The position numbers and the translations under genes are program-made. The notes below the pieces were generated by a model that was not told the origin of the DNA, ran no database searches, and saw nothing but the letters and a program-made list of their open reading frames with translations. This document shows, in pieces, positions 9,683-37,400 of a stretch of DNA of 64,000 nt. Each line of letters opens with the position of its first letter. The first letter of the stretch is position 1. Origin of the DNA: a virus; IMG/VR virus record IMGVR_UViG_3300025151_000020, positions 1-64,000 of that record; one strand, 5' to 3'.

Positions 9683-9696
9683 TAATGTGTTCATAA
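9683..9696 (+). promoter_or_regulatory. Early promoter motif TAATGTGTTCATAA
   Basis: Intergenic; 27 nt before ATG 9723. Confidence 0.6.
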
Positions 9697-9722: not shown

Positions 9723-10040
9723 ATGACTGACTACAAGCAGAAAGCATATGCTCGTGAGAGGGCATTTAGATTACTCTCACATCCCTGGTTTGAGATGATT
9801 GCTGAGATCAGGGCAGAAAGAAGTGCTTTGCTCAATGCACCGGAATATCAAGAGATGGCGGGCGTTGAGAAAGCAGAGAGATTGAACATCATGGATTCCA
9901 GGCTAAAGATAGCCCAGGATTGGGTGCATCACTACGAGGCTGAAAGGATCGCTACCGCAGGTATCCGTATGAGGAAATGGCTAAGAGAAGCCATGACATT
10001 ATCAGATGCAGAGCTAGGTCTAACAGGAGAGGGAATGTGA
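9723..10040 (+). CDS. Helical hypothetical protein
   Basis: 105-aa ORF, probably leaderless. Confidence 0.7.
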   Translation: MTDYKQKAYARERAFRLLSHPWFEMIAEIRAERSALLNAPEYQEMAGVEKAERLNIMDSRLKIAQDWVHHYEAERIATAGIRMRKWLREAMTLSDAELGLTGEGM

Positions 10041-10564
10041 TGATTAACGAAGAAGAAGTTGAATGGGCTTTACGCCTTTGGAACAGTTTAGTTGTGGGAG
10101 ATGAGAAAGACCCAATAAAATCTGGAGGAACATGGCAGTTAGAAGGTGTGGGCAAATATGTTAGAACCGCATTAAAGGAATTGACTTTGATTGAGATTCA
10201 CCTGGATCGGCATACTCCGAGTGAGGAATCGAGGAGTTTGTTTGACGAGCATGACTACATCGCAACTCTTGGTAGAGAGATAGGATGGAGTGTCAAGACT
10301 CAAGTTAGCAAGGCATACAATTACGAGGGAGAGTTCAGCATACCAGAAGATCGAATAGGTGATGTCATGGCTTGTCAATCAAGATGTGGTGCTATTGCTA
10401 GAGTTGAGCCTTTGGATCATGGAGTTGTCTATTACAAGTTAGAAGACGGACAATGCCCTGTTTGTGGAGAGCCTGGTTTTGTTGATGATGATTGGTTGGG
10501 GCTTCATGTTGTTATTGACGATAGAGGTGCGACTCTGAAAAGACTTAGACAGGAGGAGGAGTGA
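10037..10564 (+). CDS. Hypothetical protein with Zn-binding motif (CQSRC...CPVC)
   Basis: ORF 9977-10564; probable start GTG 10037 or ATG 10040, coupled to the upstream stop. Confidence 0.7.
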   Translation: MMINEEEVEWALRLWNSLVVGDEKDPIKSGGTWQLEGVGKYVRTALKELTLIEIHLDRHTPSEESRSLFDEHDYIATLGREIGWSVKTQVSKAYNYEGEFSIPEDRIGDVMACQSRCGAIARVEPLDHGVVYYKLEDGQCPVCGEPGFVDDDWLGLHVVIDDRGATLKRLRQEEE

Positions 10565-10566
10565 TC

Positions 10567-10716
10567 ATGAAGAAAGGAGAAAGAGCAAGGTATCGTATGA
10601 AGTACAAAGCAAGAGCAAGAGCATTGCCTCCGCATGAAATGAGAGCCAAAGCACTAGCAGAGAATAAAGCTGCAAAGGCGTTGGCAGAGGCATTGGCCAG
10701 GCAAGAAGAGGAGTGA
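10567..10716 (+). CDS. Small basic Ala-rich protein (49 aa)
   Basis: Read manually; GGAGGAGGTGA SD. Confidence 0.6.
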   Translation: MKKGERARYRMKYKARARALPPHEMRAKALAENKAAKALAEALARQEEE

Positions 10717-10723
10717 ATCGATA

Positions 10724-11020
10724 GTGCCACGCACACATGACTACAACAACAAAGTGCATGATGAAATAGAAACATCATGTCATCTTGGTGAATGCCTTCA
10801 TGTAGTCACTTCAAATGCTTTTGATAGCAGAGTCTTGAATCTGAGAATGTTTCGTGTTCAGCCGTCTAAGACGGGTCATACAGGATATACTAAGATTGGA
10901 TTCTTTCTTTCCAGGGATGAAGCACGACAACTCAGAGATTCATTGTCAGAAGTTGTTGAGGATGAGAATGCCTGGGATACAGACATTAGAGATACACTCA
11001 TTGACATGGAGGATGTTTGA
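10724..11020 (+). CDS. PC4/YdbC-like ssDNA-binding protein
   Basis: VLNLRMF...GYTKIGFFLSRDEARQLRDSL resembles the PC4 pattern (+DIR.F....PT+KGI.L). Confidence 0.6.
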   Translation: MPRTHDYNNKVHDEIETSCHLGECLHVVTSNAFDSRVLNLRMFRVQPSKTGHTGYTKIGFFLSRDEARQLRDSLSEVVEDENAWDTDIRDTLIDMEDV

Positions 11021-11580
11021 TGCCAAGATGGGAAACTTATGATGACTTCATGTACGAATACATGACTTTGGCACACGATATCTGTAAGAGATGTATCATT
11101 ACCGATCCAATAGCAATTGGCAATTTTGCTTTTGATTTGTGGAATCATGCAAAGGAGTTTGCATCTCGATCTCACACTACTCTCTTGTTTGATTGCGTTT
11201 ATATCGTTGGAAATGCCACAGGAAATAAGGTTTCGATTCCTTTACTCCAAAGCATTTCTTCGGATTTACTAGACGGAAGGAGAATCAAGGCAATGGCATC
11301 TTACGAGAAAACCGATAAGTGGTTTCTCACACCAAAAGGAAAGCAAGCAATCATGGAAATCTTATCAGGAGATGAGGATTTGTTCAATGATGTTGCGAGT
11401 GCATGGATTGATGGCAAGACTGTAAATATGTCTGGAGAACAAAGCGATTATTGGTGTGAGCCATGTGGTGTTAGAAGCATAAGTGGGCAAGAGCGTTTAG
11501 ACCTCATCAATGAAACGACTAAACCCATACTGATGTGTCCAGGTTGTAAGAAATGGGAATGGGATGAACGGAGTGTTTGA
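11017..11580 (+). CDS. TFB/TFIIB cyclin-repeat-like protein with C-terminal Zn ribbon
   Basis: IC....A..LW..A....RS...L..DCVYIVG...G..VSI..L resembles one TFIIB repeat; CEPC...CPGC at the C-terminus. Confidence 0.5.
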   Translation: MMPRWETYDDFMYEYMTLAHDICKRCIITDPIAIGNFAFDLWNHAKEFASRSHTTLLFDCVYIVGNATGNKVSIPLLQSISSDLLDGRRIKAMASYEKTDKWFLTPKGKQAIMEILSGDEDLFNDVASAWIDGKTVNMSGEQSDYWCEPCGVRSISGQERLDLINETTKPILMCPGCKKWEWDERSV

Positions 11581-13025
11581 CTTTGCTATCATACCGATCA
11601 CTTGCAGAATCTTGGCGAGTCATGGCCACATACAAGTTAAGGAATCGTGGCGAGATAGTTGCTAACAATCTTAGAGCTGCACCAGGAGATGCTTGGTCTG
11701 TAATATCATTCTTCTACCCTATGAGTTATCACAATGACAGGTTGAGCGATGAAGACTTGAGGGAGATTTACTTCTTGCTTACAGGTGCATTTCCAGAGGA
11801 GATAGAAAAGAATGCAGATCCCATTCAACAACTCACTATGCTTTCTGAAACACCGAGCACAACAGGGTCTGCAAAGAGCGTATCTGATCGCATATCAAAG
11901 ATATTAGAGGCAGATGATAATGAAGTGAGGTCTTGGTTGATTAGACCCTTGTTTGAAAGAATTAACAGTCGTGATCTTCATCCTTTCTTCATGAGGCTAA
12001 GTGTCCGTTCAGCTCCTGTTAGAAGGAGAGATGTCATTTCGGCATTGGCTTTGGCTTACGAGCAACCCTATCATCATGTTAGGACATCTGTGAATCTATT
12101 AGGTTTGAGAAACACATTGAATGATTTATCTCTTCATTCCTTTGATTACACGAAGGTTAGACCTATTCTTGGTGAATCAATGGTCATACCCACACCAACC
12201 CTGGTTGAGTCCTCTAATGTTGTTGCATTTACCAAGTGCCTTCTTGAAACAGTTGAAGGTGCGTGGGTGACTATTCATCGTATGCAGAACAAGACAATTG
12301 GATTCACCGCTTCTGGTAATGAATTGCCCGATGATGATGATTGGATACATAATTGGGCTAACATAATCAATCTCCAGGAAGGAATATATCTCTGTGATTA
12401 TGCAGAGATGCGAGATAACCCTTTGTTGTTGGTAGATTGGCTAAACCCAGATGATCCGAAAATGACTCTTGCAAAACGCAGAGATAGATTCAATGGCATA
12501 TCTGAATGGGCAATCAAACCCATGATTGCTTTAGACAGACCATATGATAGTGAGAAATACCAAGATACAGGGTTGCCTTTCTTGATCAGGAATGCTAGAG
12601 GCATATTGACATATCAGAACACCGTTGAAGAAGTGGTCCTGTTGAATCCTGTGTCTAAGCATAGGATACTTCGAGTATTGTCTGGGCGTGTTCATCAGAA
12701 TCTAAGTCAGAGCGATACATTGTTTGTACTTTGGAAGTTGGGTGTTCGTGATGGATATGATTACTTCCCAATAGTTGAGATGCCTTCTGGTGAATTAGAA
12801 GATATTGATTTCAAACAATACTGTTCGCCCTGGAAATGGTTGCCAGGAGAAGCAATAAAAATAGAGAATCCTTTGTTCGTAAAGGTGGATATCATGACTT
12901 CTGGTTGGGGGGAAGTTGGAGCATATGTCAATGGCAGAATTGTGGGCATAGATGGTAGTGCGGGGATCGCAGACACAATGGGTGTGGAGGAGATAGGCTA
13001 TGTCGGGGATTCTCAATCAGGATGA
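11577..13025 (+). CDS. ATP-dependent DNA ligase homolog, apparently catalytically inactive
   Basis: DBD, NTase and OB segments are colinear with archaeal ligases; motif I reads ETVEGAWVTIH instead of xKxDGxRxQxH. Confidence 0.65.
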   Translation: MTLLSYRSLAESWRVMATYKLRNRGEIVANNLRAAPGDAWSVISFFYPMSYHNDRLSDEDLREIYFLLTGAFPEEIEKNADPIQQLTMLSETPSTTGSAKSVSDRISKILEADDNEVRSWLIRPLFERINSRDLHPFFMRLSVRSAPVRRRDVISALALAYEQPYHHVRTSVNLLGLRNTLNDLSLHSFDYTKVRPILGESMVIPTPTLVESSNVVAFTKCLLETVEGAWVTIHRMQNKTIGFTASGNELPDDDDWIHNWANIINLQEGIYLCDYAEMRDNPLLLVDWLNPDDPKMTLAKRRDRFNGISEWAIKPMIALDRPYDSEKYQDTGLPFLIRNARGILTYQNTVEEVVLLNPVSKHRILRVLSGRVHQNLSQSDTLFVLWKLGVRDGYDYFPIVEMPSGELEDIDFKQYCSPWKWLPGEAIKIENPLFVKVDIMTSGWGEVGAYVNGRIVGIDGSAGIADTMGVEEIGYVGDSQSG

Positions 13026-13419
13026 TAGAGATATCATAATCTTAGCCTCATTGATTAGGGGCAAGATTCGTTGTGAGAGAACACGGGAAAGAAAATGTGG
13101 TTATCTCATTAGGGCGGAGTTGGGAATACCAACTATGAAGGATGGAGCTAGTCGTGCATTGGAAAGTCATGGATTACCTGTTAGGCTAACATACACGGAC
13201 ACCATTGAGATCACAAAAATACTGAACATGATAAATGGCCTGGAAGACCTATCAAAAACTACTGATGATTTGTTTCTAGTCAAAAAACTCAATGGAGTGT
13301 TGAAACAACCACGAACTCACAAAGAGGTTCTATCTGCCCTTGAGTTGATTCAAGAGTATGAGAGTGTTCATAACCCAAACCACACTCCCACAAAGCCCAA
13401 AAGAATGGAGAGTGAATGA
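13000..13419 (+). CDS. Degenerate LAGLIDADG-fold-like protein
   Basis: ILASLIRG..C.R....KCGYLIRAELGI resembles the LAGLIDADG helix plus GY.+R strand but lacks the acidic catalytic residue. Confidence 0.35.
   Translation: MSGILNQDDRDIIILASLIRGKIRCERTRERKCGYLIRAELGIPTMKDGASRALESHGLPVRLTYTDTIEITKILNMINGLEDLSKTTDDLFLVKKLNGVLKQPRTHKEVLSALELIQEYESVHNPNHTPTKPKRMESE
13360..13373 (+). promoter_or_regulatory. Early promoter motif GAGAGTGTTCATAA
   Basis: Exact copy of 1056-1069, inside the 3' end of the upstream gene, 50 nt before ATG 13423, which has an SD. Confidence 0.6.
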
Positions 13420-13422
13420 AAT

Positions 13423-14754
13423 ATGGCAGATGCATTGAAGAGATTGGAAGATGAAATGGGGTGGACACCTCAAGAAACGGTAGAGAAACTACATGAGTGG
13501 TGGAAGGAGGTGAATCCAGAAGAGTTCGCCCGCTATGATGGTGACTTCTCAAAGATAGAAGATGAGAGCGAAACAGAATGGATACTTTCAGGCTTTGAAT
13601 CCACATGGAGGAGAAGAGGCACGGCAAGCGGACCAGGTGACAGATATGTTGGATTCGTTATCGGATACAACGGGCAACAGGATCTAATGGGAAGGCAGAG
13701 AGAGAAGGCAATTGAAGCAATTCAATTTCATGGCATTGATTCAGTATTGAAGAATGGAATACAACCATACCAGGATGATCGAGTAGTGAGAATTGGCCGT
13801 GCAGGATATGTAGAAGGTGCATGGAGAGTCTTTGACGCAACTGATCGTGAGATATACACAGATGAGGGTGATGAGTCTGAATTACCAAAGTGGGCTATTG
13901 CAGTACCTGGTCAGAAATACTTCCTTGCAATCATGGGAGGGGCTAAAGGACCAAAGACGGCATACTCTTACAAGAAGAATTGGCTAGTCGTGGCTAACAA
14001 AGAATCTGATTTCTTTAGCAAAGGTCCATCAGCACCTATGACTCTTGAATGCTCATGGGATGCGGCAGACCTTGACCTAAGAATGAATGAGCCAATTTCT
14101 TTTACGGCAGAAGAAGGTACTGCATTCTATGATGAGTCAGTAAAGATTCTGAAAGCGGGTGGTGGTCTTAATCCAACATATGGTTTAGAGCAATTCTCTG
14201 ATGAGCAGAAGCCTCTGTTTGAGCAACTAACAATTGATCAAGTATTGGCACAGTTTGCAAACTTCCAACCTGATCTATCATTGATTCAAGAATACCATGA
14301 AGACAACAAGACCACACTTGCAAGTGGCCGTGATGTCGGACCGATATTCGCCATGAGAGGTGTAGTGGATTACATGGATTATGATGGAAAGGACAACATC
14401 AAGTTCGGCTTATCCGCAGAAGGAGGAGCTCAGCACAAGTTGGCAATATACAGTCAAAGTCTTAGAAATGAGAATCCAGATGCATCGGTGTGGATATCCG
14501 TATCAAGGACACTCATTGAGAAGCACCATGCCTTCCAGGTAAAGAAGAATGGAGAGTGGTATGATTTCGTAAAGCCAACTCAAGTATTCATTGTAGTAAG
14601 GTCAAGGACATGGCAGAACAACGATGGCGATACTAACTATGACTACGATGCATTGAATGTAGTCGCACCATACCCCAACAGATCATCAATAGCACAAACA
14701 ACAACAGAAGATGCAAACGATATGGGGAGTCTAGGCAATTTCAGAGGTGATTAG
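13423..14754 (+). CDS. Putative OB-fold ssDNA-binding (RPA-like) protein
   Basis: 443 aa, acidic and aromatic-rich; C-terminal OB-like strand pattern (AMRGVVDY...VWISV...QVFIVVRSR...YDALNV); adjacent to a Sak4-like ATPase. Confidence 0.45.
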   Translation: MADALKRLEDEMGWTPQETVEKLHEWWKEVNPEEFARYDGDFSKIEDESETEWILSGFESTWRRRGTASGPGDRYVGFVIGYNGQQDLMGRQREKAIEAIQFHGIDSVLKNGIQPYQDDRVVRIGRAGYVEGAWRVFDATDREIYTDEGDESELPKWAIAVPGQKYFLAIMGGAKGPKTAYSYKKNWLVVANKESDFFSKGPSAPMTLECSWDAADLDLRMNEPISFTAEEGTAFYDESVKILKAGGGLNPTYGLEQFSDEQKPLFEQLTIDQVLAQFANFQPDLSLIQEYHEDNKTTLASGRDVGPIFAMRGVVDYMDYDGKDNIKFGLSAEGGAQHKLAIYSQSLRNENPDASVWISVSRTLIEKHHAFQVKKNGEWYDFVKPTQVFIVVRSRTWQNNDGDTNYDYDALNVVAPYPNRSSIAQTTTEDANDMGSLGNFRGD

Positions 14755-14756
14755 GG

Positions 14757-14966
14757 TTGGATGAGGTAGTTATAGGCACATTCCTTGACTACGTTGCCTG
14801 GCTCAGACGAGATGGATCTGTTGAGCAATTACAAGTACCTCAACAAATAGCAATGTTTGGACACTTGCAGGTGGATTATTCCAATCTTCATGTAGTAGCT
14901 GCATTATTGACTCAATGCGAATTGAATCGAGCAGAGCAGACTCCTTTGATACAGGTGGTGGAGTGA
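14757..14966 (+). CDS. Small hypothetical protein
   Basis: 69 aa, TTG start with GAGGTGA SD; TGATG-coupled to the next gene. Confidence 0.6.
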   Translation: MDEVVIGTFLDYVAWLRRDGSVEQLQVPQQIAMFGHLQVDYSNLHVVAALLTQCELNRAEQTPLIQVVE

Positions 14967-16345
14967 TGTCGGATGGATCAGGATTTGAGTGGTTCAAGAA
15001 GGTGGATACCAACACAGGACTAGCGGATGGACAAGCACCTCCTCCAAAGAAGGAGAAGCCACCTCCCAAGAAGAAGAACATCTGGGGAGAGGAAGTGGAT
15101 GAACCCGATTTTGATACCACAGGTATGTCTGCTCAAGAGATTGAAGAAAGGATGTATCCAGAGATCGTGGAGGATAGGAATCCTCCACCCCCATTGGACA
15201 AGGGGGCATCATTACCCTGGCAAACTAAAGATGAGCCAAAGGAAGAACCCATAGTGACTGACAATTGGCCTCAGAATGACCCTAGTGAAGAACCGCTACC
15301 AATAATGAAGCAAGCACCTCAAGCACCCCCTCAACCTTCTGCCGTTCCTAATAAGAAGGTGGCAGAGCCTGTTGCTCGTAGCAACAATCCCTATTGGGAG
15401 TTGGTTGATCATGAAAGAGCAGGTGGTGATGCATTCCTATCTGGTTTGGATAATTTCGTACTCTGTGGTATAGCAGGTCCTCCTGGATGCGGTAAGACAG
15501 GCATGGTTCTTGATTCGCTTACGGATGAGGAAATAGCCAATGGTGCAGAGATATGGCACATTGACTTTGACAGAGGTGGCAAGACCTCCAAACACGCTCA
15601 TCACAGAGGAAAGACCAATATTTTGACATTCGATCCCTGGGTTTTCAAGAGAGAATCAGGCAATAGAGTGCCAACAGATTACGAAGCGTCTTATCTCAAG
15701 ACGATGGATCTATTGAGCCTAGCCATAGAGCAGATGCACAGTCAGACTGAGTATTACAGGCAACATGGAAAGATGCCCGAAAGATATCTCAAGACATTGT
15801 TGTTTGATGGTTCTGATAAGTGGGAAAGCATTTGCAGGACACTCATGAAGGTACAAGACCTCGGTTTAGGTGCTGATGGCATAGGAGCTGCAAAGAAGCG
15901 TGTGACGCATTTTAGTTGGCACGTTAGAAAGACTCGCTACACCTCTGCATCAGAGTGTTGGCAGGGTTTGATGACAGGCGGAGTTCATGTCTATACTATT
16001 GCACACATGAAATCCACATATGATGGTGAAGGCAACATCGTTGAGGGTCAGGAGATACCAGGATGGCTCAAGGATAGCGATGGCGATCTTCAACAAGTCG
16101 TACTCATGGAATTGATTGAGGAGAGAGATGAGTTGGGCAGAAGGACAGGAGTCATAGATTCATATGCAGTTCTAACAAAGAACAGAACATCACTTGACCT
16201 TCCAGGCAGACACCAAGTCTTTCACAGAGCACCACCAGAATTAGGTGGTTCAACATGGTATGGTTGGCCTAGCCTCAAGTATGGAAAGTTTGAAACAGAT
16301 CAGGGGCAGGGTTTGAATGGTACTCAAACTGAGATTTCCTCGTAA
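14966..16345 (+). CDS. RecA-fold ATPase, Sak4/AAA_24-like recombinase, with Pro-rich N-terminal extension
   Basis: GPPGCGKT Walker A, IDFDRG, LLFDG Walker B, IAH.K; start ATG 14966 after a GGTGGTGGAG SD. Confidence 0.75.
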   Translation: MSDGSGFEWFKKVDTNTGLADGQAPPPKKEKPPPKKKNIWGEEVDEPDFDTTGMSAQEIEERMYPEIVEDRNPPPPLDKGASLPWQTKDEPKEEPIVTDNWPQNDPSEEPLPIMKQAPQAPPQPSAVPNKKVAEPVARSNNPYWELVDHERAGGDAFLSGLDNFVLCGIAGPPGCGKTGMVLDSLTDEEIANGAEIWHIDFDRGGKTSKHAHHRGKTNILTFDPWVFKRESGNRVPTDYEASYLKTMDLLSLAIEQMHSQTEYYRQHGKMPERYLKTLLFDGSDKWESICRTLMKVQDLGLGADGIGAAKKRVTHFSWHVRKTRYTSASECWQGLMTGGVHVYTIAHMKSTYDGEGNIVEGQEIPGWLKDSDGDLQQVVLMELIEERDELGRRTGVIDSYAVLTKNRTSLDLPGRHQVFHRAPPELGGSTWYGWPSLKYGKFETDQGQGLNGTQTEISS

Positions 16346-25986: not shown

Positions 25987-26717
25987 TAAGCATCTTCCTC
26001 CCATCCTTGTCTATCCCAAAGGTCTGGATCAACATCCAAATCATCGCCACCTAATCTATTAGTCCTATACGCCCCATCTATGGTTGTTTGGAACGGTGTT
26101 CTTGAGTTGTATTCACCTCTCATTTGAGCATGAGCTATTTCATCTAAAGCGGTTTCCATAATTTCTTTATCTGTGATTCCCGCATTCATTATAGCTCTAA
26201 CTAAACTTGCTCTTTCTATTTCGTCTAACAACTCAGTCTTTCCTGATGCAGGTTGCAGGAAAAATGACTCTGTGAAATCTCGTTGTGAATCTGTAAAGTC
26301 ACCTATGTCGTAATCCATTTTAGGAGGAACTATGATTTTTCCTTCTTTTACATCTTTCTTGAACTTGGCTGCATCCATCAATGCCCTCATTGTTGGAATA
26401 TATTCGCCCGTTAAAGGATCATACTCAACCGAAGATTGAAACTCGTCATTGTAAAAATCCTCCTTTGGGCCACCCATTCCTCGGTAGTTTGATGTTTCGT
26501 AACCTCTTTCCGAATCAACTCCGAATCTATCTCCTGTTCGTGGGTTAATCATTGGGTCATTACTAAACGGGTGAAGGTAATTGTACCAATGAGGAATCCT
26601 TGAGCCACGAAATGCTAGTTGGGCATCCTTGTCTGTATATGTAGGTGGTCCATCTGTTGCTTTTGGCAACTTGAAATCAACATCTTTAACGAGATCCCAA
26701 GCCTTTTCAAAAATCAT
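25986..26717 (-). CDS. Hypothetical acidic protein with MIFEKAWDLVK N-terminal tag
   Basis: 243 aa, inserted among tail genes. Confidence 0.75.
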   Translation of the reverse strand: MIFEKAWDLVKDVDFKLPKATDGPPTYTDKDAQLAFRGSRIPHWYNYLHPFSNDPMINPRTGDRFGVDSERGYETSNYRGMGGPKEDFYNDEFQSSVEYDPLTGEYIPTMRALMDAAKFKKDVKEGKIIVPPKMDYDIGDFTDSQRDFTESFFLQPASGKTELLDEIERASLVRAIMNAGITDKEIMETALDEIAHAQMRGEYNSRTPFQTTIDGAYRTNRLGGDDLDVDPDLWDRQGWEEDA

Positions 26718-29700
26718 TATTTCACCTCGTAGTACAGACTCTTGCTCGCACCAATTGGCCGACTCCGCTTATTCCCATCACGAACCCCTATTTTCCCCAT
26801 TCCATTAGTGTGTTTCGCCCCGATAATAAATCCGGTGTTGCTTACATTGCGAACAAATACTTTGTGAACTGCTACTATGTTGATGCCACTTGACATGGAT
26901 ATCTCTGCCACATCAACTACTGTTCCCGCAGCTTGATCCAGGGGAGATGAGTTACCAGAAACCGCTTGTAGGTCTGATAGTATGCCTTCAATTCCCTTAT
27001 CATACTGTGCGACTATGAAATTGCTCATCATAGTTCCATAGTTGTGCATTGCCTCGAATACTGCAAAGTCACCTCTTAGGCCATGCGTTGGCAGATCGAG
27101 TTTGATTATCTCTCCTGGTTGAATAGTTGAGGCTTTGAATGCACCTTCTAATGTGACTAGAGGAGCACCATTTTCTGCACGGGCTAGAATGGCCTTTGCC
27201 AAACGCAATGCTTCTTTGTTAGTCTTGAGTCCTGGAATGTCTTGGCGTAGTGTTCTGACCATGTTTGACTTCGCACCTTTGCTCGCCTCATTCTTCATTC
27301 TCTCTAAGTCCTTGACAACAACAAAGACTCTCTCGTTGTTAGCCAATCCATCGCCAACTACGACTATCTCATTAGGAGAGTCCAACATCTTGCTCACGCT
27401 TACTGATCGGATTGCACTTCCTAATCCTAGAACATTTCCTCTGCTATTGAAACTGTCCGAAGCATAGACCAAAGCACCATTGCTTTCATTCACAAGTTGC
27501 TTTCCATCAATCTGAGTTAGATTCCTAATTATCTCCATGATGTTTAGACCTCTTGTCTTACGGGCAGTATATACATTTGAGTGATCGGTAATTAGGCGAA
27601 GCGATGGATGTGCATCCAATGTGGATGATACTTCTCTATCCTTACCGAGAAGTGATTTTGTTGGCGTTACATTGAATCCTGCCAACTCTGAACCTGCATC
27701 ATTCAATAGATTCATAGCTGCATCGCTTGTCCTTATTCCAACGAATCCCAATTGACCCATTAGTATGTGTCCTTGCGTGAGTCCTGCATCTGCTAGACTA
27801 TCTGCTTCTATGTTCCTAAATTGTAGGAATGTGGATAACTCATCTGTTTCAACTCCTGCAACCCTCAACACGAATCCTTTGGAATCATATACATATGGTG
27901 GGAAGTATGATGAAGATATTTCTTTTCCATCAAACCGAATAGCATTGATTGAAGATGAAGATGTTTTGATCTGAGCAGTTGTCTTTCCGTTCTCAATCAA
28001 TATCGGGCGTTGGTTAATCATCATGAAATCACCAGGGTCATACTCTAGCAATCCTCTGAATGATAGCGTGGTTTGTTTCACCTTATCGTTAGTCGCATCA
28101 TATCTATTCCATAGAGAAGATACCTGTTTAGCAAGAACTACGGTGTTGTCTATGTATGTGGGAGATATTAGATGAGGGAGAGTTAAGGAACGCATATCTG
28201 ATAATGCAGACGGGCTACCCTCTGTCGTATAACGAAGTATCTGACCTTCCAAATCTCCTATGCCTGTGCTATTGGTGACTCCTGTTAGTTTGTTCTTTGT
28301 TTTGCCTGTGTATGTGATCTTTCCTTTGCCTACAACAAACATAGTACCGGATGCAGGAAGCAAAGAGCCGTCTTCCAAATATACATTAGTGCTAACGTGC
28401 TTTGTTACTTTGAACTGAGGATATAGCCTCATTGCAGTATCCATGTGAGTGTGCGTCACTCCATCAGGAGTTGTTTGCTTTACGAAGTCACCCGATATTC
28501 CTGTACCTTCTGCCCTGTATCGTGTTTCTGATTGATGTAGGCTCTCTCCTCCTCCTGGATGAGTCGTTTGAGAATATCTAGCTTCAATTTCTGGGTTGAA
28601 CTCTCCATCTACTGTTTTCCTTACTGCATCTGATTTGAAGAATTGCAACATAGATGTGCTTGGCAACAGATGGAATACCGAATCTAATTCATTGGCATCA
28701 GGCCAAGTCATCTCAAAGACTCCCTCTGCCGTGCTGATGAACTCAAGAGTGCCAAGCGTTTGTTCCATGTCAGACTCAAACACACCATACCTGTTGTCAC
28801 GAGTGAATGGCTGATACTCTGTGTCAGAATCTCCTAATGACGACCTTGCTCCTAACACCCATCCATCCTGTAATAGATCTGATGCGAAGCCATACAGTTT
28901 CAATGGCCTCACAGGTCTTACGAAATAATCAATTGACCTTCTCTTTTGATTGGATGTCGTAGCATTTCCTTCTGTTCCAAATACATCAGTAGTAAGACTC
29001 CCCTCCTCCGTTCTGTTTAGGTATGTCTTTCGAAGAATGTATGTGCCTCCCCATGCAGGTAGGTCTGCTGAACCTCTGACTGACCAGATGTCCTTAGCAT
29101 GGGTCTTCTGAGCGTTTATGACAGGAGGATTGGTCGGCAGGGTTACTGTTGCAAGTATTACTGCACTTGAACCGCTTCCACTCAAAGTTATGGTTGGGGC
29201 GGTTGTATATCCTGAACCACCAGCACTTATGCTAACCGATGCCACAGGACCCGTAGTATTGAGAACCGCAGTAGCAGTACCTGCACTTCCGCCTCCTGAT
29301 AAATGAGTAGTTGGTATAGTGATGGCAGGAACAGAGGTATAGCCACTACCTCCACTTGTAATAGTAACCGCAGTTAGGCTTCTCGTAGTGGCATGACCTG
29401 TATTGATGGTAGCAGTTACCGTAGCGTTACCGCTTGCAACAGTTACTGATGGAACACTCGTATATCCATCGCCATCATTAGTTATTACCGCATATGCAAG
29501 ACTACCATTGTTAGTCAATATGATATCGTTATTGGCATTTGTTTGATCTTGACTTGAGTTCATTGTAATTGGATTGCCGTTAGTCTGTTGAAGGAGTTGA
29601 AAGGTGGGGCTATCCTCGGATGTGTAACCGACTCCTTGTGTTACAGTACCATAACTTGTAATGAATCCATTGGAATCGGTAGTGGCATTCACTCCCGATA

Positions 29701-32700
29701 GAGTAGTGGTAGGATTTACAGTTACATCTCCTGGTACGGTAGTCCAATTAAATGTGGCATTAACGGCATTGGTTCTTACTTGTGCAGGAGTATCCATAGT
29801 GGCATTCTTTGAGCGATAAGCAACTCCTGTGGCGGCATCGCTATTGTTGTGAGATGCCTGTGGTGAGGCTATGGTTAGTGCTATCGTATCCCCTGATCCT
29901 GTGCCGTAGTTGTTGTTAGTTCCCCCTATCGTAAGTGCAGACAATGGTTTTCCATCTGCGGAGAGAGTGTATGTTCCTGTTGCATTACCTGCAATCGTTA
30001 CCGTATATGATGCAGTTGTTGTTCCTGTATATTGTTGAGCACCACCACTTACACTCGCACTTGCTACACTTGTGGTTGTGGTGTATGTACCGGAGAATCC
30101 TGTACCTCCTCCGCCTCCTGAAAAGCCCAATGTGCCACTTGGATATGTATATCCCGTTCCTGCATTAGATATTGAAAGAGCAGATACGGCAGCTCCTCCA
30201 TCTCCTTTATCATCCTTTGAATCAGGACTCCATGTTGGCAAGGTGTATGGATTGGATATGGTTTGAGAATCTGCACTACTTGGATCAAGCGTCATGTTCT
30301 CCGTTGTAAATCTAGTATTGACTGACCAGGAAGGCAATACGGGGAAGTGTTGCCCTACAATCAGATCGCTATGTAACGATGCCGCTTTGGTTGATAGGAC
30401 TGAATATTGAATGCTCTTATTGTCTATTCTTTCACTTTCTGTTTCAATAACGAATCCTAATCTTGGCTCGGTTCTCGCCTGGACTTGCCTATGATCACTT
30501 ATCTCGGACAGAGGAATGGGAGTAAGACTGTTGATTGTGGCATTTGAATGAGTTGCTAATCCCCAACCTGTGGTGGGATAATGAACATAAGATGTGTTTG
30601 AGTGATCTATTGCAGATGCGTTTGTATGAAGGGCATTTCCTCTAAGGTGATGGAATCCGCCACTCACTCCAAACTGTGTGGAACTAACGGCAGAGGGTGA
30701 ATTGGATTGACTATATGTGTTTGACCCTGTATATTGAACCAAATCAACAAACGGGTCTGAACCCTTATTCATAGGTACGGCTTTCAACGGTAGATTGGAG
30801 TTTGTGTTATTTGGGTCTAATTTAGATTCCCAATTACCTGCGGGCAAAGCAGTAGGATCAACAAGACCTGCTGATTCCATTCCAAGTGTCAAACCGAATC
30901 CAATAGGTTGCTCTGATGCGAGTGGTTTTGAGTTGCTTCTTCGAACAACGCTTGTGAAAGGAGTGGCCTCTGCCGTATGTGCAGTTAGGATTGCTCCGAT
31001 TGGCATTGTCCTCTCAACACCATTGTAGTCTGAGGGGAATACCCATGAATCGCCATATGTTGTGGCATTGGGTAGTTTATTCATGGAGTCGTGGATACCG
31101 CCATCAAATCGGCCTTTCCCATATATTGGTTGATTAGCAGATTGATTCTCATTTGGATCACCTGCGAGCATATCCAAAGCATCAGAACTTGTTCTAAAGC
31201 CCCATGCTCTAACGGGCAACCTTCTGCTCAAATCATATGCGACCATACTATCTAATATGGACACATATTTTGTGAAGGACACGCCATCTGTATCGGTATC
31301 ATAAGATATGGTCACTCCTGTTCTTTCTGGATTCAACCCATCGCCTATACCTTCTCCTCTAGTATGTCGTATATTCTCAAACTCTTTTGGTAATCGGAGA
31401 GTACCATGTGCCTCTCTCACAGTAGTATGACCCATAAGAACAGAGTTGGCAGACTTGAGTCCGACTATATTCCCATGCCCTCCCGCATTCAATCCGTTGT
31501 ATCCATAGTTCTGTAACCATTGTGTGACATATATTCTTTCAAAGGGTAATGCATTCTCTGCTTGTGCAGTAGTGGTTGGGTTAGAGTGATTGCGTAGGTA
31601 CAATCCTCTAGTGGGTGGGTAGTTTAGTGATCTCGGACCACCTGCTTCTCTGTATCGGAAGGTCATGTAGTGTTCTCGACTCGTTCCGAGGATGGCAGGA
31701 TGGCTATACTCAGCCAACCAATGACATAGGAATGCGTCTGGAACGCACCCTGTACCTGTGTTGGCCTTGTCTAGTAGTGCAAAGTCACCGTTTGTAGCCG
31801 TTATACCACCACTACCTCCTGGTGTAAGGGCAGCTAGATTGAGATATTCGGGGTCGTGGCACAAGAGAGGAGGCACAGTAGCCAATTCAGTACCAGAACG
31901 GGGTACTGCGACCCCTTCTTCAAGTCCAATCATGAAGTAAGCAGACGATCCAACATCAATTACAGGGGCGATTGGGCGACCTCCTGAGAGTGAATAGTCG
32001 CCAATCATAAATCCATTCGTTATGATTTCAGAACTCGTGTTATATCGGCTTCCCCCACTCAAAGCATTGGCAAAAGTGAGCCTAGTTGCACCCGAATTAG
32101 TGCTAGTTGTACGGCTTGGAGATGCCCTTCTGACGAGATGACCTGCTCCTATCGTTGCAGTTTGTTCCTGTCCAGGGGCTACGAGGTAGTCAATGTCCGT
32201 TCTCGGAGTCACACCAGAATAAACTGCTTTCACATCTGGTAGCCTAAATCCGCTTAATTCACTCATTGGGATACCGTCTGAGGAAAATGAGCCATTTGCT
32301 CGATATCCACTTTCATCTTTGACTTCTAATGTGTCCAATTCAAAGACAGTTGAAGAATTAGTGGATCTAGCAGAACCAAAGCCATGATGCTTGTGTTCTG
32401 TTTCTGCCTCAAACAACAAAGAATAGGAAGAACCGTGAGAACGGTGCAATTGTCGCCTCATAGAGGCAGGAGTACCCCTCTGGGTCATAGGAGTCACGAA
32501 AGAGTGTCCTTGCCTTGCAAAGCGTATTCTATGGTGTGGAAACGGGTATCCTGTGGATGTGCCGTTGTTAGTTTGAGTAAGCACAGAACCTCGCTCTGCG
32601 TGGTCAGTAATTCTGTGAGCTGCAAATAAGCGTGTTGTACCGCTTGGAACTGCACCAGCAGTAGTGTGGGGGGTTAGACCCTGTTTCGTGGCCATATCGG

Positions 32701-34498: not shown

Positions 34499-37400
34499 TA
34501 CCACACCGCCCTCGCTGCAAACATCTCTTGGACATCTGCCAAACTGAATACATAATCAAAGACTCCAATCTCACCCATCGTCATGTTCCATGCCCAAATC
34601 TGGTCATTGTTCGTGTTAGTTGTGGTGTATGCAGTTGCTCCATCCGTGCAACCACAGGCCATGTTGTATGTTGAGCCATTGATTGTATAGATTGACATCG
34701 GACCGTTGGTGGCCGTTGGTGCTTGGTCAATAGCACCTGCCGCAGATAAGCCAATGAAACACATACCTGTCTGTGTTAGATCTCCGAGATACTTAGGCAG
34801 TTTCCCCTGGATTGGTGTGCCTGTGCCACCTACTAATGTATTTACTGACGATGATGTGAATGTGTGAGTGGTGTCTATCTTCTGCGTACTGCCTACATAG
34901 AACTCTTCACCACTAAGTCTGAAAGTCACATTCGTTCCTGATTTAGACATCGTGAGGTTATGCCATTTGCCCCTATGGATTCTAACTCCGTCTGCTTGAG
35001 CTGCATTTGTCACCGACCTTATGTTTGAGCCATCATGGAAAAGGAAGAAGAAGCAAGCCTGTTGGTAATTATTTCCTGTACCATCTCCCGTCACCGAGTT
35101 TTGCCCTGCTAGGTACAATCCCCAATACCTTCCGGCGGCATCACGACCTGTGATCAACGGACCGGATGCCGCTTCCACATTCGCATTGCCAAAGTTAGAA
35201 CCAAAGTTCGGTTTGAACCAGACGCTTATTGTGTAATCTCCTGTGCAATCAAAATCTCCCATCGGCCCGTACTCTTTATTCACGGCAGAGCCTGTCCAAT
35301 AGTGGGTTGCCACAGTTTGCAAACCATGAAAGTCAAGCCCTTTAGATGTAGTATCAACTGAGTAAGCAGGACCATTCTGCACATCCATTGTTGCGTGAGC
35401 ACCTGTTTTTATTGATGCCACCTCAACACCTGCATCAACTGCCGCTAATCCACTTACACCCGTCAAAGTGTGAGGACTACCGCCTGTACTCTTTCCTGTG
35501 TATGTGAAGAAATCTCCACCTGCAATTGCATTGTTCGTGCCACTTGATTCAAAGTCAGTAGCATCAACAACATTGAGTGTGCTTCCACTTGAGTAATTAC
35601 TTTGCACAGTCGTTGCGGCCTTCCCTCTTGATACTCTTAGAGGAGAGGCATAAATCGCTTCCGTCAGATCCTGTCCTTGATTGTATGATGCGTTGGCATA
35701 ACCAACCTCCTGATCCAATCTAGCATACAGAAGACATCTTTTGAGAGAATTGCCTTCCTCCTTCAAACGATGATGTATTCCTTGCAATGTATCCTCATTG
35801 ATGGTGTCGTTGTTCGTTATATCTGTGAAGTCCAATACCGCAGAAGCCGTGCTTACCTCATGTAGGTTTTGAAAGCCGGAGAACCCTGTTGGCCCTTTGG
35901 AATAGTGATGAAGGAAATCATCGCTATAATCATTTGATGTTCCATCGCTTATGTCAAAGGTGACTCCTGTGTGTCCTCCTCCAAAATACACAATGCCCTC
36001 CTCTTCTGTGCCAGGATATAACAATTCAACTTCTATTCCGTCTATTGCGTTACCATCCGAATCATAGAACAACTCAATGAAATCAGTAAGACTACCATAT
36101 GGCACTATACTCCTAATCATAAAAGCATTAGTCACTACATCTGACGATAAGGTAGTTCTCTGTTGGTCTATTCCTTGAAACGATGCTAATGCACCCTTGA
36201 CTCTAAGCACACCCTGCATCAATGGACCAGGAGTCTTTGTAATACGCTTGAGGTAATCAGTTGCCGTGATGCTAACTGCAAGGTGATTTATGTCTGTATC
36301 ACTTGAGGGGTTAAATGCTGACAGGGTAGGAGATGTCATATCTGGAGCAGTTGCACTTGCACCAAGCAATGTTTCTGCGGTAGGGCTTGATACTGTCGTA
36401 ACCGTAAATGATCCGCCTAGTCCGTTATAAGACCTCAAATTATTAGCAGAATCAAGGGTACTGCCCGCAACAGCTCCTTTGAATGTACTAATTGGAACAA
36501 ATGTTTCTCCGTCTGCACCGATTGGCATAGGAGCTGCGAATGAGTTGGTCTGATACAACCTACTGTTAGTGGTTATAGGAGCACCGTATCCTACTACCTG
36601 TGCGGGCTTGTAGGCATATGGTGTTCTATTGCTAAGTCTAACATTGAAATTACGCCCCGATGCACCAGGGATTGTGCTATGGATCACTATTGAGATTCCC
36701 GATTCACCATCTCTGCTTTCAGTAGCAGTTCCTACGAATGCTCGGACATAACCCATGTGCGTTCCTGTATTCGTGTCAGTTGCAGATACAGGGAATATCG
36801 CAGGAGGGTCAAAGGCACTACCTCCTGTACTATTCTTCGCTTGAGGATGACCAGCCATGTTGATTCTCCTTATGACCTCCTCTACACAGACATTGAAATC
36901 AGAGGTGGTATTTGCTATTGAGTTGAAATCAATATCCAACGGCCTAACATATTCTAGTGCAGAACCATCGGATTTCTTTCCCTTCAATGAAAGATAACTT
37001 GTCTGACAGAGTATGGGATGCAAGGATTGCCTGTCATTTGCCGACTCGTGTGCCGATTGTACATCCCACTCAAAAGCCTCCATGTTCGGTCCGTCTAGGA
37101 TTAGTATTCTCGCACTATTATTCGGATCTGCATGAACTGCATCTGCATTCAATCCTATGATAGCCTTTACAGACTCCCCCAATGCTTCGGCTACAAGTAT
37201 TCGATCTGATAGTCCTAAAGGCGTTTCACCCGAAATTATTCCTGGTATATCCACTACTGACAATATGATCGGAGAAGAGTCATTGGCAACGGTAGTATTG
37301 GTATCCACCACTATGAATCCGCCAAGCGTTACAGTCATACCTGCATCTATGTTTCCTAGATTGCTACTTTCATTGCTTGATGTATCAAGTGGATTCCAGG

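What the first reader, a model, noticed from the sequence alone, without database searches (positions are those of the whole stretch)
10724..13419. Candidate new module: PC4-like + permuted TFB-like + dead ligase + dead LAGLIDADG in one coupled operon
Four consecutive overlapping genes all look like DNA-binding scaffolds without catalysis: a PC4-like protein (PC4 is a transcription co-activator/ssDNA binder), a single-cyclin TFB-like protein, a three-domain ligase without an active site, and a LAGLIDADG-like fold (domesticated as the transcription factor WhiA in bacteria). The genome also shows two promoter classes. Hypothesis: a pseudoenzyme-based complex that redirects host RNA polymerase to viral late promoters, or couples transcription to nicked replicating DNA, by analogy with T4 gp55/gp33/gp45. 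The folds are pattern-based calls; the joint function is speculation.
Basis: inference. Interest (0 to 1): 0.75.

Follow-up and report, generated by a model that had tools for sequence, protein, structure and literature searches.

The report
Archaeal virus operon of dead-enzyme folds
A marine archaeal tailed virus that has no DNA polymerase carries a conserved, tightly coupled run of early genes for a PC4-like protein, a half-size TFB-like factor, a complete DNA-ligase fold with no catalytic lysine and a LAGLIDADG-fold protein with no fixed catalytic acid, so it probably takes over host machinery with binding proteins rather than enzymes.

Summary
Genes A (10724-11020), B (11017-11580), C (11577-13025) and D (13000-13419) are real, under purifying selection, and joined by embedded Shine-Dalgarno sites. 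All four occur in order in 44 of 47 related viral loci.

All four fold calls hold:
- A is homologous to PC4 (hhalign E 5.5e-5).
- B matches the TFIIB/TFB cyclin core (E about 2e-4).
- C has the full three-domain fold of ATP-dependent DNA ligases (Foldseek E 1e-20, Z 19). No known member has the motif I lysine or the motif IV/V lysines.
- D has a LAGLIDADG fold (Z 7.7). The catalytic-acid position is Lys here and varies across the family.

Corrections:
- The unit is larger. Upstream gene u1 carries an Spt4-like domain (E 6e-7).
- Conserved synteny continues into an ATPase and a nuclease.
- B's C-terminal zinc ribbon is specific to the window's clade.
- Only the early promoter class is statistically supported.
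- The virus resembles polymerase-less Adrikavirales, not classic magroviruses.

The joint function is untested. I favour a host-transcription takeover and adaptor set (about 0.4) over a replication/recombination accessory role (about 0.25). The scan noted the same dead ligase in one other genome.

The parts
9683..9696 (+). Variant copy of the early promoter-like motif (core GTGTTCATAA), ending 26 nt before the u2 start codon
   Evidence: Read directly. The core is conserved at the same position before u2 in L001, L005, L006 and L011. The family motif occurs 7 times against 1.4 expected, all on the + strand.
9723..10040 (+). u2, 105-aa conserved helical protein of unknown fold; first gene of the unit
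   Evidence: Orthologues in about 32 loci. The profile finds nothing in PDB sequences.
9977..10564 (+). u1, 195-aa protein conserved in nearly all loci
   Evidence: invariant C133, C137, C160; C163 nearly invariant.
10352..10546 (+). Spt4-like zinc-ribbon domain of u1 (about aa 126-190)
   Evidence: The four best PDB profile hits are all archaeal Spt4/RpoE'' (E about 0.01). hhalign against 20 real archaeal Spt4 proteins gives Prob 92%, E 6.4e-7 over 36 columns that extend beyond the Cys knuckles; the TFB-ribbon control gives 9 columns at E 0.005.
10561..10716 (+). u0, 51-aa basic helical ORF found only in close relatives
10724..11020 (+). Gene A, PC4/YdbC-family protein (98 aa) with an acidic tail
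   Evidence: hhalign of the family against bona fide archaeal PC4 proteins gives E 5.5e-5 over 50 columns. The nearest ESM Atlas clusters are PC4/YdbC (0.91, 189 shared features). The only PF02229 hit in the 107-kb relative G001 falls on the A orthologue (E 0.017).
11017..11580 (+). Gene B, TFB/TFIIB-like protein with a single cyclin-type repeat (187 aa here, 121-149 aa in most relatives)
   Evidence: The eight best PDB hits of the family profile are all TFIIB/TFB core domains (E 1.8e-4 to 9e-3), and both TFIIB repeats align to the same region of B. hhalign against archaeal TFB gives E 0.005 for repeat 2 and 0.11 for repeat 1.
11449..11562 (+). C-terminal CxxC...CxxC zinc ribbon of B (C147, C150, C174, C177), specific to the window's clade
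   Evidence: Present only in the window, L001, L002, L004 and a few clusters at 61% identity or more. In relatives the B|C junction holds other small ORFs or nothing.
11577..12161 (+). Gene C, N-terminal helical DNA-binding domain of the ligase fold (aa 1-195, pI 8.0)
   Evidence: AF2 model with pLDDT 84. Full-length alignment to archaeal and human ligases. pI.
12162..12656 (+). Gene C, nucleotidyltransferase-fold domain (aa 196-360) without the catalytic lysines
   Evidence: Superposes on the LIG3 NTase domain at 2.8 A over 164 residues, Z 15.6. It has the lowest dN of the three domains. K314 is the only invariant Lys across the wide family.
12246..12278 (+). Relic of ligase motif I: E-T-V-E-G-A-W-V-T-I-H in place of E-x-K-x-D-G-x-R-x-Q-x-H
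   Evidence: Family alignments. hhalign places this block on motif I of true ligases, with K on the variable residue 225, D on E227 and R on W230. A divergent subclade keeps the motif I Arg.
12657..13025 (+). Gene C, OB-fold domain and conserved C-terminal tail that also encodes the Shine-Dalgarno site of D
13000..13419 (+). Gene D, single-domain LAGLIDADG-fold protein (139 aa, pI 8.6). The LAGLIDADG-type helix spans aa 7-18, and Lys22 sits at the position of the catalytic acid.
   Evidence: AF2 pLDDT 90.8. All top 50 Foldseek hits are LAGLIDADG endonucleases. The top 14 hits of the independent VIA-align search are all LAGLIDADG proteins, WhiA included, at Z 5.1-7.7. Column 22 varies K/G/D/E/S/Q/R across the family.
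13360..13373 (+). Exact copy of the early promoter-like motif inside D's C-terminal tail, 50 nt before the start of gene E; marks the 3' boundary of the unit
   Evidence: Conserved at the same position in L001, L002, L003, L005, L006 and L011.

Best explanation
The four genes are the distal, translationally coupled part of an early transcription unit (u2-u1-u0-A-B-C-D) in a polymerase-less tailed virus of marine archaea. Every recognisable product is a binding-only derivative of a nucleic-acid-transaction fold:
- u1: an Spt4-like zinc-ribbon domain.
- A: a PC4-family ssDNA binder.
- B: a one-repeat TFB/TFIIB-like protein.
- C: a complete DBD-NTase-OB DNA-ligase homologue. The adenylated lysine and the motif IV/V lysines are replaced in all known members.
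- D: a LAGLIDADG-fold protein without a fixed catalytic acid.

Most likely mechanism (inferred): the set redirects host machinery onto viral DNA without catalysis.
- u1, A and B engage the host transcription apparatus. The Spt4 mimic would act on Spt5/RNAP, the TFB-like repeat on TBP/promoter/RNAP, and the PC4-like protein on the melted strand, as in the eukaryotic Sub1-TFIIB partnership.
- C-D supply recognition of DNA structure or sequence. C would act as a ligase-derived clamp on nicks or ends that cannot seal them. D would bind DNA in the way the LAGLIDADG domain of WhiA does.

Shown: the folds, the loss of catalytic residues, co-conservation, purifying selection and gene coupling. Inferred: every binding partner and the biological role.
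For: Folds:
- C.
- D.
- B.
- A.
- u1.

Loss of catalysis in C:
- No Lys at motif I in 27 close and 16 wide-family sequences.
- The motif I block maps onto KxDGxR of real ligases.
- K314 is the only invariant Lys in the whole protein.
- A profile search of 1.84 billion representatives finds only the family itself, with no bridge to active ligases.

D: the catalytic position is Lys here and variable in the family.

Selection: dN/dS 0.06-0.21, with the NTase domain the most constrained part of C.

Co-conservation: 44 of 47 loci carry all four genes. The A-B and C-D gaps have a median of -4 nt, and A-B is never split.

Coupling: SD sites embedded at each junction.

One unit: promoter-like motifs flank it and none lies inside.

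Three consecutive transcription-type folds (Spt4, PC4, TFB) in one unit are hard to attribute to chance.

Viral TFB homologues are already read as tools for recruiting host transcription (bioRxiv 10.1101/2021.07.29.453957; PMC13700489).

The virus lacks a DNA polymerase by Pfam, so it must rely on host machinery (compare PMC11706807 and PMC13108676).
Against: - No binding partner, interface or expression timing has been shown.
- The surrounding + arm is dominated by DNA-metabolism genes: UvrD, glycosylase, P-loop ATPase, PD-(D/E)XK, Dcm and ERCC4. That fits a replication/recombination role equally well.
- PC4-like proteins of phages have been linked to recombination-dependent replication, and a TFIIB-like fold also occurs in Orc6 (own knowledge).
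- B's match rests on two weak domain hits that sum to E 1.8e-4. It has only one repeat and no B-reader or linker.
- The Spt4 and PC4 assignments do not reach Pfam gathering thresholds.
- A distinct late promoter class is not established.
- The mapping of motifs IV and V in C rests on the order of secondary-structure elements, not on a residue-level superposition.
- C-D may have nothing to do with A-B. Insertions of 1.2-4.7 kb separate B from C in four loci.
Confidence: 0.4

Rival explanations
1. Replication/recombination accessory module. A is an SSB for recombination-dependent replication, as proposed for phage T5's PC4-like protein. B is an Orc6-like TFIIB-fold DNA/origin adaptor. C is a non-sealing nick, flap or end binder that recruits or blocks host PCNA, ligase or polymerase. 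D is a non-cutting DNA-site binder. They would work with the downstream protein E, the P-loop ATPase F and the PD-(D/E)XK nuclease G.
For: Synteny runs u2-u1-A-B-C-D-E-F-G across 58 loci. The neighbours are UvrD, ERCC4, PD-(D/E)XK, an AAA_24-like ATPase and Dcm. The virus has no polymerase or ligase of its own, so it must capture host replication and repair factors. Published magroviruses keep a ligase in their replicative gene block (PMC5434244).
Against: B's only detectable similarity is to TFIIB/TFB, not Orc6. An Spt4-like domain has no known replication role. E begins a separate promoter-defined unit.
Confidence: 0.25
2. No joint function. The four genes are independent early genes that are neighbours only because the whole early arm of this virus lineage is strongly syntenic.
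For: Conservation of order extends well beyond the four genes. Insertions split B from C in four loci and D from E in one. Complex prediction gave no verdict and is listed only under Tried and rejected.
Against: A-B and C-D have a median gap of -4 nt and are almost never separated. SD sites are embedded in the upstream genes. The clustering of five binding-only derivatives of nucleic-acid folds in one unit is unusual.
Confidence: 0.2
3. Anti-defence decoys. The dead ligase and dead LAGLIDADG protein would mimic host enzymes. They could soak up host inhibitors, nucleotide signals or nucleases, or shield nicks and ends of incoming viral DNA.
For: Early expression is implied by the promoter motif. 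The former nucleotide-binding domain of C is its most constrained part. That fits retained ligand binding.
Against: No match in the searches run, and the PADLOC library was not searched. Nothing in the context is specific to defence. The family is strictly confined to one virus lineage.
Confidence: 0.08
4. C is still an active ligase or nucleotidyltransferase that uses a relocated nucleophile, for example the invariant K314.
For: The virus and five relatives, two of them 100% complete, have no other recognisable ATP- or NAD-dependent ligase. K314, D287 and R301 are invariant. The NTase domain is strongly constrained.
Against: Motif I Lys, motif I Asp (outside the window's clade) and the motif IV and V lysines are all replaced. 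Motif I Arg survives only in one divergent subclade, a pattern of decay. K314 lies in a strand that matches no catalytic motif of the superfamily (inferred from the order of structure elements). Polymerase-less viruses can use the host ligase.
Confidence: 0.05

Closest known systems
Archaeal/eukaryotic three-domain ATP-dependent DNA ligases (Thermococcus, Pyrococcus and Saccharolobus ligases; human LIG1/3/4)
   Same: Same DBD-NTase-OB architecture over the full length: Foldseek E 1e-20, Z up to 19.3 with 440-459 residues aligned, and the NTase domain at 2.8 A. A relic of motif I, motif IIIa with its Asp, and the following Arg-Arg are recognisable.
   Different: No significant sequence similarity. 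The adenylated Lys is absent in all members. Motif I Asp and Arg are replaced in the window protein. There are no conserved Lys at motifs IV and V and no motif VI. The protein is about 80-100 residues shorter.
TFB/TFIIB, including TFB homologues of rudiviruses and Asgard archaeal viruses
   Same: Cyclin-type repeat with the R-x-P...D/A-x-x-Y-I/V-A...G signature, detected at E about 2e-4. It is virus-encoded, like the known viral TFBs (10.1101/2021.07.29.453957; PMC13700489).
   Different: One repeat instead of two, and no N-terminal zinc ribbon, B-reader or B-linker. In the window's clade alone a zinc ribbon is fused at the C-terminus. It does not reach Pfam detection.
PC4/Sub1/YdbC ssDNA-binding family, including phage PC4-like proteins
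   Same: Profile-profile homology over strands 2-4 and the helix, including the Y-T-G-F/Y-T-K-Q-G motif shared with archaeal PC4 proteins. Similar size.
   Different: Below the Pfam threshold. It has an acidic C-terminal tail. In eukaryotes PC4/Sub1 cooperates with TFIIB (own knowledge); here the gene directly precedes and overlaps a TFB-like gene.
LAGLIDADG homing endonucleases (I-CreI, I-TnaI, I-Vdi141I) and the domesticated LAGLIDADG transcription factor WhiA
   Same: Single LAGLIDADG-type domain starting alpha-beta-beta-alpha (Z 7.7 to endonucleases, 5.2 to WhiA). As in WhiA, the catalytic acid is not conserved.
   Different: Only two long beta-strands are predicted instead of a four-stranded saddle. 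There is no HTH domain as in WhiA. It is not associated with an intron or intein.
Phage T4 late-transcription system (gp55 sigma, gp33 co-activator, gp45 clamp loaded at nicks)
   Same: Conceptual analogy only: virus-encoded initiation-factor mimics together with a protein able to recognise nicked replicating DNA.
   Different: No homology, no demonstrated late promoter class, and no evidence that C binds nicks or that any of the proteins touches RNA polymerase.

Membership tests
ATP-dependent DNA ligase (covalent nucleotidyltransferase superfamily) | DBD-NTase-OB three-domain fold | tested here: met
   Foldseek E 1.2e-20, full length. VIA-align Z 19.3 with 453 residues aligned; NTase domain 2.8 A over 164 residues.
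ATP-dependent DNA ligase (covalent nucleotidyltransferase superfamily) | Motif I KxDGxR with the adenylated lysine | tested here: not met
   The block reads E-T-V-E-G-A-W. The Lys column is T/P/I/V/E and so on, and is never conserved, in 27 plus 16 sequences. hhalign maps the block onto motif I of 17 real archaeal ligases.
ATP-dependent DNA ligase (covalent nucleotidyltransferase superfamily) | Conserved lysines of motifs IV (EGxxxK) and V (xKxK) | tested here: not met
   No conserved Lys anywhere in residues 330-360. K314 is the only invariant Lys in the protein. The motif positions are assigned from the order of strands in the model, not from a residue-level superposition.
ATP-dependent DNA ligase (covalent nucleotidyltransferase superfamily) | Detectable by family sequence models (PF01068/PF04675/PF04679) or by sequence profile against solved ligases | tested here: not met
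   No Pfam hit at E up to 1. Single-sequence and profile searches of PDB sequences find no ligase. The profile search of 1.84 billion proteins returns only the family itself.
ATP-dependent DNA ligase (covalent nucleotidyltransferase superfamily) | Self-adenylation and nick sealing | not testable with these tools
   Needs a biochemical assay.
TFB/TFIIB | Cyclin-like repeat with TFIIB-type sequence signature | tested here: met
   The eight best PDB hits are all TFIIB/TFB (E 1.8e-4 to 9e-3), and the next unrelated hit is at E 0.17. hhalign against archaeal TFB repeat 2 gives E 0.005.
TFB/TFIIB | Two tandem cyclin repeats | tested here: not met
   The family core is 121-149 aa. Both TFIIB repeats align to the same single region of B.
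TFB/TFIIB | N-terminal zinc ribbon followed by B-reader and B-linker | tested here: not met
   No N-terminal Cys motif. A CxxC...CxxC ribbon exists only at the C-terminus and only in the window's clade.
TFB/TFIIB | Binds TBP-promoter DNA and recruits RNA polymerase | not testable with these tools
   Needs biochemistry, or complex prediction with host proteins.
PC4/Sub1/YdbC | Sequence homology to the PC4 ssDNA-binding domain | tested here: met
   hhalign of A's family against four archaeal PF02229 proteins gives E 5.5e-5 over 50 columns. The nearest Atlas clusters are PC4/YdbC. The Pfam gathering score is not reached: best member E 0.21, and the six-frame hit on the A orthologue has E 0.017.
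PC4/Sub1/YdbC | Beta-beta-beta-beta-alpha fold forming a dimer that binds ssDNA | not tested
LAGLIDADG endonuclease / WhiA-type domain | LAGLIDADG fold | tested here: met
   Model pLDDT 90.8. All top 50 Foldseek hits are LAGLIDADG proteins. The top 14 of an independent search of 48,161 chains are all LAGLIDADG proteins at Z 5.1-7.7, then a drop to 3.4 or less.
LAGLIDADG endonuclease / WhiA-type domain | Conserved Asp/Glu at the C-terminal end of the LAGLIDADG helix (metal ligand) | tested here: not met
   The window has Lys22. Across 29 orthologues the column is D/E in about half and K/G/S/Q/R in the rest. Position assigned from the aligned ranges to I-CreI.
Spt4 (for upstream gene u1) | Four-Cys zinc ribbon followed by the Spt4 beta-strand motif | tested here: met
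   C133, C137 and C160 are invariant and C163 nearly so. hhalign against 20 archaeal Spt4 proteins gives Prob 92%, E 6.4e-7. The four best PDB hits are Spt4. PF06093 is not reached by single members.
T4-type late transcription switch | A distinct late promoter class recognised by virus factors | tested here: inconclusive
   TAAATA-NN-ATTGA has two exact copies, both on the late arm. A relaxed version occurs at chance frequency, 14 against 15 expected.

The most novel reading that the evidence does not exclude
This would be a virus-encoded set of basal-transcription mimics for an archaeal host. A truncated TFB, a PC4 co-factor and an Spt4 mimic would be physically coupled to two pseudoenzymes: a ligase-derived ring that recognises but cannot seal nicks, and a LAGLIDADG-derived DNA reader. 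Viral middle or late transcription would then be licensed only on nicked, replicating viral DNA. That would be an archaeal counterpart of the T4 gp55/gp33/gp45 logic, built from entirely different folds.
Probability: 0.1. Interest if true: 0.85.

Novelty: new variant of a known kind. Interest (0 to 1): 0.62.

Why it matters
[quoted passage not shown] How their polymerase-less tailed viruses use the host is unknown; the ICTV profile lists replication as 'unknown, possibly using host replisome'.

This operon offers concrete candidates that can be cloned:
- A naturally occurring, strongly conserved pseudo-ligase. I found no description of a full-length three-domain DNA ligase homologue lacking the catalytic lysine in the literature searched. 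It would be a natural nick- or end-binding module.
- A minimal one-repeat TFB-like protein next to a PC4 homologue. This echoes the eukaryotic Sub1-TFIIB partnership.
- A possible Spt4 mimic.

If these proteins do bind host RNAP, TBP, Spt5 or PCNA, they would be new tools for studying archaeal transcription and replication. They would also be an example of a virus building a takeover kit from inactivated enzymes.

Tried and rejected
- Single-sequence Pfam and PHROGs scans of A-D and six neighbours found nothing useful.
- phmmer and profile searches of C against PDB sequences found no ligase.
- tblastn of C and of A against 50,697 phage records found no match.
Synteny came from the search for related loci instead.
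- hhalign of C against 17 real ligases was not significant (E 0.09). I used it only to map motif I.
- The ESM Atlas gave no lead for D and holds no structure for A or D.
- Word-indexed searches with the A and B family alignments returned only unannotated family members.
- PHROGs on A's family gave noise.
- Search for a second ligase: PF01068 and PF01653 are absent from the genome. Sub-threshold PF01068 hits in ORFs of about 1150 aa in two relatives have E 0.15 in a full Pfam scan. They are absent from this genome's 1113-aa orthologue, which has no KxDGxR.
- Complex prediction on C plus D gave 'no answer' (score 0.00 against a mark of 0.32). This is not evidence either way.
- The look-up of sequencing runs listed no RNA holder, so expression and transcript ends could not be examined.
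- Late-promoter motif: not supported beyond two exact copies. My crude intergenic survey was too noisy for motif discovery.
- Which TFB repeat B resembles could not be decided.
- Profiles of E, F and u2 against PDB sequences found nothing.
- The sigma-70 promoter and terminator scan was at background, as expected for an archaeal virus.


Full report
WHAT IS THERE

The window is part of a 93.3-kb viral record, about 88% complete. It encodes:
- an HK97-type capsid protein;
- portal and terminase;
- a group II chaperonin;
- UvrD, ERCC4-HhH, PD-(D/E)XK and Dcm;
- very large late-arm ORFs.

The capsid protein is closest to haloarchaeal tailed viruses, at 32-33% identity. The DNA recurs in marine metagenomes of about a dozen studies. 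Pfam finds no PolB, MCM, RFC, clamp or ligase. The genome therefore resembles the polymerase-less Poseidoniales viruses of the order Adrikavirales (PMC11706807, PMC13108676), not classic magroviruses, which carry a near-complete replisome and one or two recognisable ligases (PMC5434244).

THE OBSERVATION

- A: 10724-11020
- B: 11017-11580
- C: 11577-13025
- D: 13000-13419

The A stop overlaps the B start (TGATG), the B stop overlaps C's start, and C and D overlap by 26 nt. Each downstream start is preceded at 8-10 nt by a GGAGG-type site embedded in the last codons of the upstream gene.

C belongs to a family of 33 clusters at 90% identity. Fifty-eight related viral loci were recovered, down to 30% identity. 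Of 47 loci that cover the region, 44 have all four genes in order. Two exceptions are loci too short to reach past an insertion, and one is a very divergent relative. Synonymous sites are saturated while dN is 0.11-0.45, so dN/dS is 0.06-0.21 where it can be computed. These are constrained genes.

GENE C

An alignment-based AF2 model (pLDDT 84) matches archaeal and eukaryotic ATP-dependent DNA ligases over its full length:
- Foldseek E 1.2e-20.
- VIA-align Z up to 19.3 with 440-459 residues aligned.
- The NTase domain alone superposes on that of LIG3 at 2.8 A over 164 residues.

Sequence methods do not see this relationship. An exhaustive profile search of 1.84 billion representatives returns only the family itself.

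Where ligases have E-x-K-x-D-G-x-R-x-Q-x-H, the family has E-x-V-E-G-x-W-x-x-x-H. A comparison with 17 real archaeal ligases, although not significant overall (E 0.09), aligns exactly this block. It puts the adenylated lysine on the variable residue 225, the Asp on E227 and the Arg on W230.

In a wider alignment reaching 21-25% identity, no member has a lysine there. A divergent subclade reads E-x-I-R-G-E-R-L-x-x-H and keeps only the motif I arginine, as expected for stepwise decay from a true ligase. K314 is the only invariant lysine in the whole protein, so the motif IV and V lysines are gone too.

The NTase domain nevertheless has the lowest dN of the three domains, so the former pocket probably still binds something. 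Neither this genome nor five relatives, two of them 100% complete, contains another ATP- or NAD-dependent ligase. I rate C as a non-ligating pseudoenzyme at about 85%.

GENE D

The AF2 model is very confident (pLDDT 90.8). All top 50 Foldseek hits are LAGLIDADG homing endonucleases. An independent all-against-48,161-chain search puts 14 LAGLIDADG proteins on top at Z 5.1-7.7, including WhiA in an RNAP open complex. Scores then drop to 3.4 or less.

The helix L-A-S-L-I-R-G-K takes the place of L-A-G-x-x-D-G-D. The catalytic-acid position is Lys22 in the window. Across 29 orthologues it is D/E in about half and K/G/S/Q/R otherwise. Cleavage is therefore not the conserved function.

GENE B

The family profile hits eight TFIIB/TFB core-domain structures (E 1.8e-4 to 9e-3), and both TFIIB repeats align to the same single region of B. 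The next unrelated hit is at E 0.17. Against archaeal TFBs, repeat 2 scores E 0.005 and repeat 1 scores 0.11, which does not decide between them.

Most orthologues are only 121-149 aa. The C-terminal CxxC...CxxC ribbon is confined to the window's clade. In relatives the same junction holds a 47-aa Cys/His-rich ORF, an unrelated 97-aa ORF, a methylase insertion or nothing. 'Permuted TFB' thus describes this genome, not the family. Viral TFB homologues are known in rudiviruses and Asgard viruses (10.1101/2021.07.29.453957; PMC13700489).

GENE A

The nearest ESM Atlas clusters are PC4/YdbC (0.91, 189 shared features). The only PF02229 hit in a 107-kb relative lands on the A orthologue (E 0.017). 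hhalign against four bona fide archaeal PC4 proteins gives E 5.5e-5 over 50 columns, including a shared Y-T-G-F/Y-T-K-Q-G motif.

BEYOND THE STATED COORDINATES

A promoter-like motif, RAGAGTGTTCATAA, occurs seven times against 1.4 expected, always on the + strand. One variant ends 26 nt before u2. One exact copy lies inside D's tail, 50 nt before gene E. Both positions are conserved in close relatives. The unit is therefore u2-u1-u0-A-B-C-D.

The conserved 195-aa u1 has a C-terminal domain whose four best PDB hits are archaeal Spt4 (E about 0.01). It aligns to 20 real Spt4 proteins with 92% probability and E 6.4e-7. The alignment extends beyond the Cys knuckles into the W-x-G-x-x-V-V-x-D strand. 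A TFB-ribbon control aligns only 9 columns. Single members do not reach the Pfam Spt4 model.

Conserved synteny continues through E (443 aa, unknown), F (a P-loop ATPase with weak AAA_24 similarity) and G (PD-(D/E)XK). Insertions in relatives fall between B and C or after D. They never fall between A and B, and almost never between C and D. The set is best seen as two tight pairs.

INTERPRETATION

What is shown: five consecutive conserved products are binding-type derivatives of nucleic-acid-transaction folds. Two of them, C and D, are enzymes that have lost their catalytic residues.

What is inferred: their role. Three transcription-type folds in a row (Spt4, PC4, TFB), with the PC4 gene overlapping the TFB-like gene, echo the eukaryotic Sub1-TFIIB link (own knowledge). 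On that basis I favour a host-transcription takeover and adaptor function for u1-A-B, with C-D supplying DNA-structure or DNA-site recognition (0.4).

A replication/recombination accessory role is the main rival (0.25). The arm is full of DNA-metabolism genes, phage PC4-like proteins have been tied to recombination-dependent replication, and TFIIB-like folds occur in Orc6 (own knowledge). Independent functions (0.2), anti-defence decoys (0.08) and a still-active ligase with a relocated nucleophile (0.05) remain possible.

The late promoter motif is not established.

NOVELTY

The individual folds and viral TFBs are known kinds. In the literature I could search, I found no description of a conserved, full-length three-domain DNA ligase homologue without the catalytic lysine, nor of its fixed pairing with a LAGLIDADG-fold protein downstream of Spt4-, PC4- and TFB-like genes. 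The scan's own notes record the same ligase relic in one other, related genome (e1-5931277).

Noticed in passing
window 9977-10564 (u1), Spt4-like part about 10352-10546: The conserved gene two positions upstream of A carries an Spt4-like zinc-ribbon domain at the end of a 195-aa protein whose N-terminal 125 residues match nothing. It could be a viral mimic of the Spt5 partner.
   Followed up: yes
B|C junction: window 11413-11580; L005 7854-7997; L006 7708-8001; L021/L022 about 2200-6700: The junction between B and C is a variable slot. It holds a fused zinc ribbon in the window, a 47-aa Cys/His-rich ORF in L005, an unrelated 97-aa ORF in L006, and a 4.5-kb insertion with a cytosine methylase in L021/L022.
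   Followed up: partly
window 11689-11718 (C residues 38-47): The DNA-binding domain of C contains a segment that reads Q-W-x-x-I-x-F-F-Y in much of the family and so resembles a PCNA-interacting PIP box. The Gln is missing in the window protein, and the segment is predicted to be helical inside the domain.
   Followed up: no
window 1056, 3630, 4572, 7624, 9683, 13360, 17294, 20560 (+ strand): A 14-nt promoter-like motif, RAGAGTGTTCATAA, recurs only on the early + arm (7 hits against 1.4 expected). Its core is positionally conserved in relatives at 75% identity or more.
   Followed up: yes
window 10551-10566, 11007-11012, 12986-12990: Shine-Dalgarno GGAGG sites for the next gene are embedded in terminal Glu-rich codons of the upstream gene (u1 ends QEEE, C ends in a conserved G-V-E-E motif). 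Part of the C-terminal protein conservation may therefore be nucleotide-level constraint.
   Followed up: partly
L086 995-4336 (-), i.e. genome 64995-68336: A 1113-aa late-arm protein has orthologues in relatives (44% identity) that give sub-threshold hits to the ligase adenylation domain (E 0.15 in a full Pfam scan). Published magroviruses have a ligase embedded in the structural module.
   Followed up: partly
window 14915-16345 (F) and 13423-14754 (E): F has a long Pro/Glu-rich, poorly conserved N-terminal region before a conserved P-loop core with weak AAA_24 (Sak4-like) similarity. E is a strongly conserved 443-aa protein with no detectable relatives.
   Followed up: partly
window 26717-34504, 34498-41061, 48753-58391 (- strand): Three giant late-arm ORFs of 2595, 2187 and 3212 aa. 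I did not analyse them.
   Followed up: no
L087 12587-13495 (-) and L087 8025-9287 (-): An HMGL-like (pyruvate carboxyltransferase-type) gene (E 5e-32) and a GP88-family gene lie near the far end of the viral record. The first may be an auxiliary metabolic gene.
   Followed up: no
L033 909-1793: In one relative the C orthologue is cut to 294 aa by a frame break, while the tblastn match continues. This is either a sequencing or assembly error or a genuinely disrupted copy.
   Followed up: no
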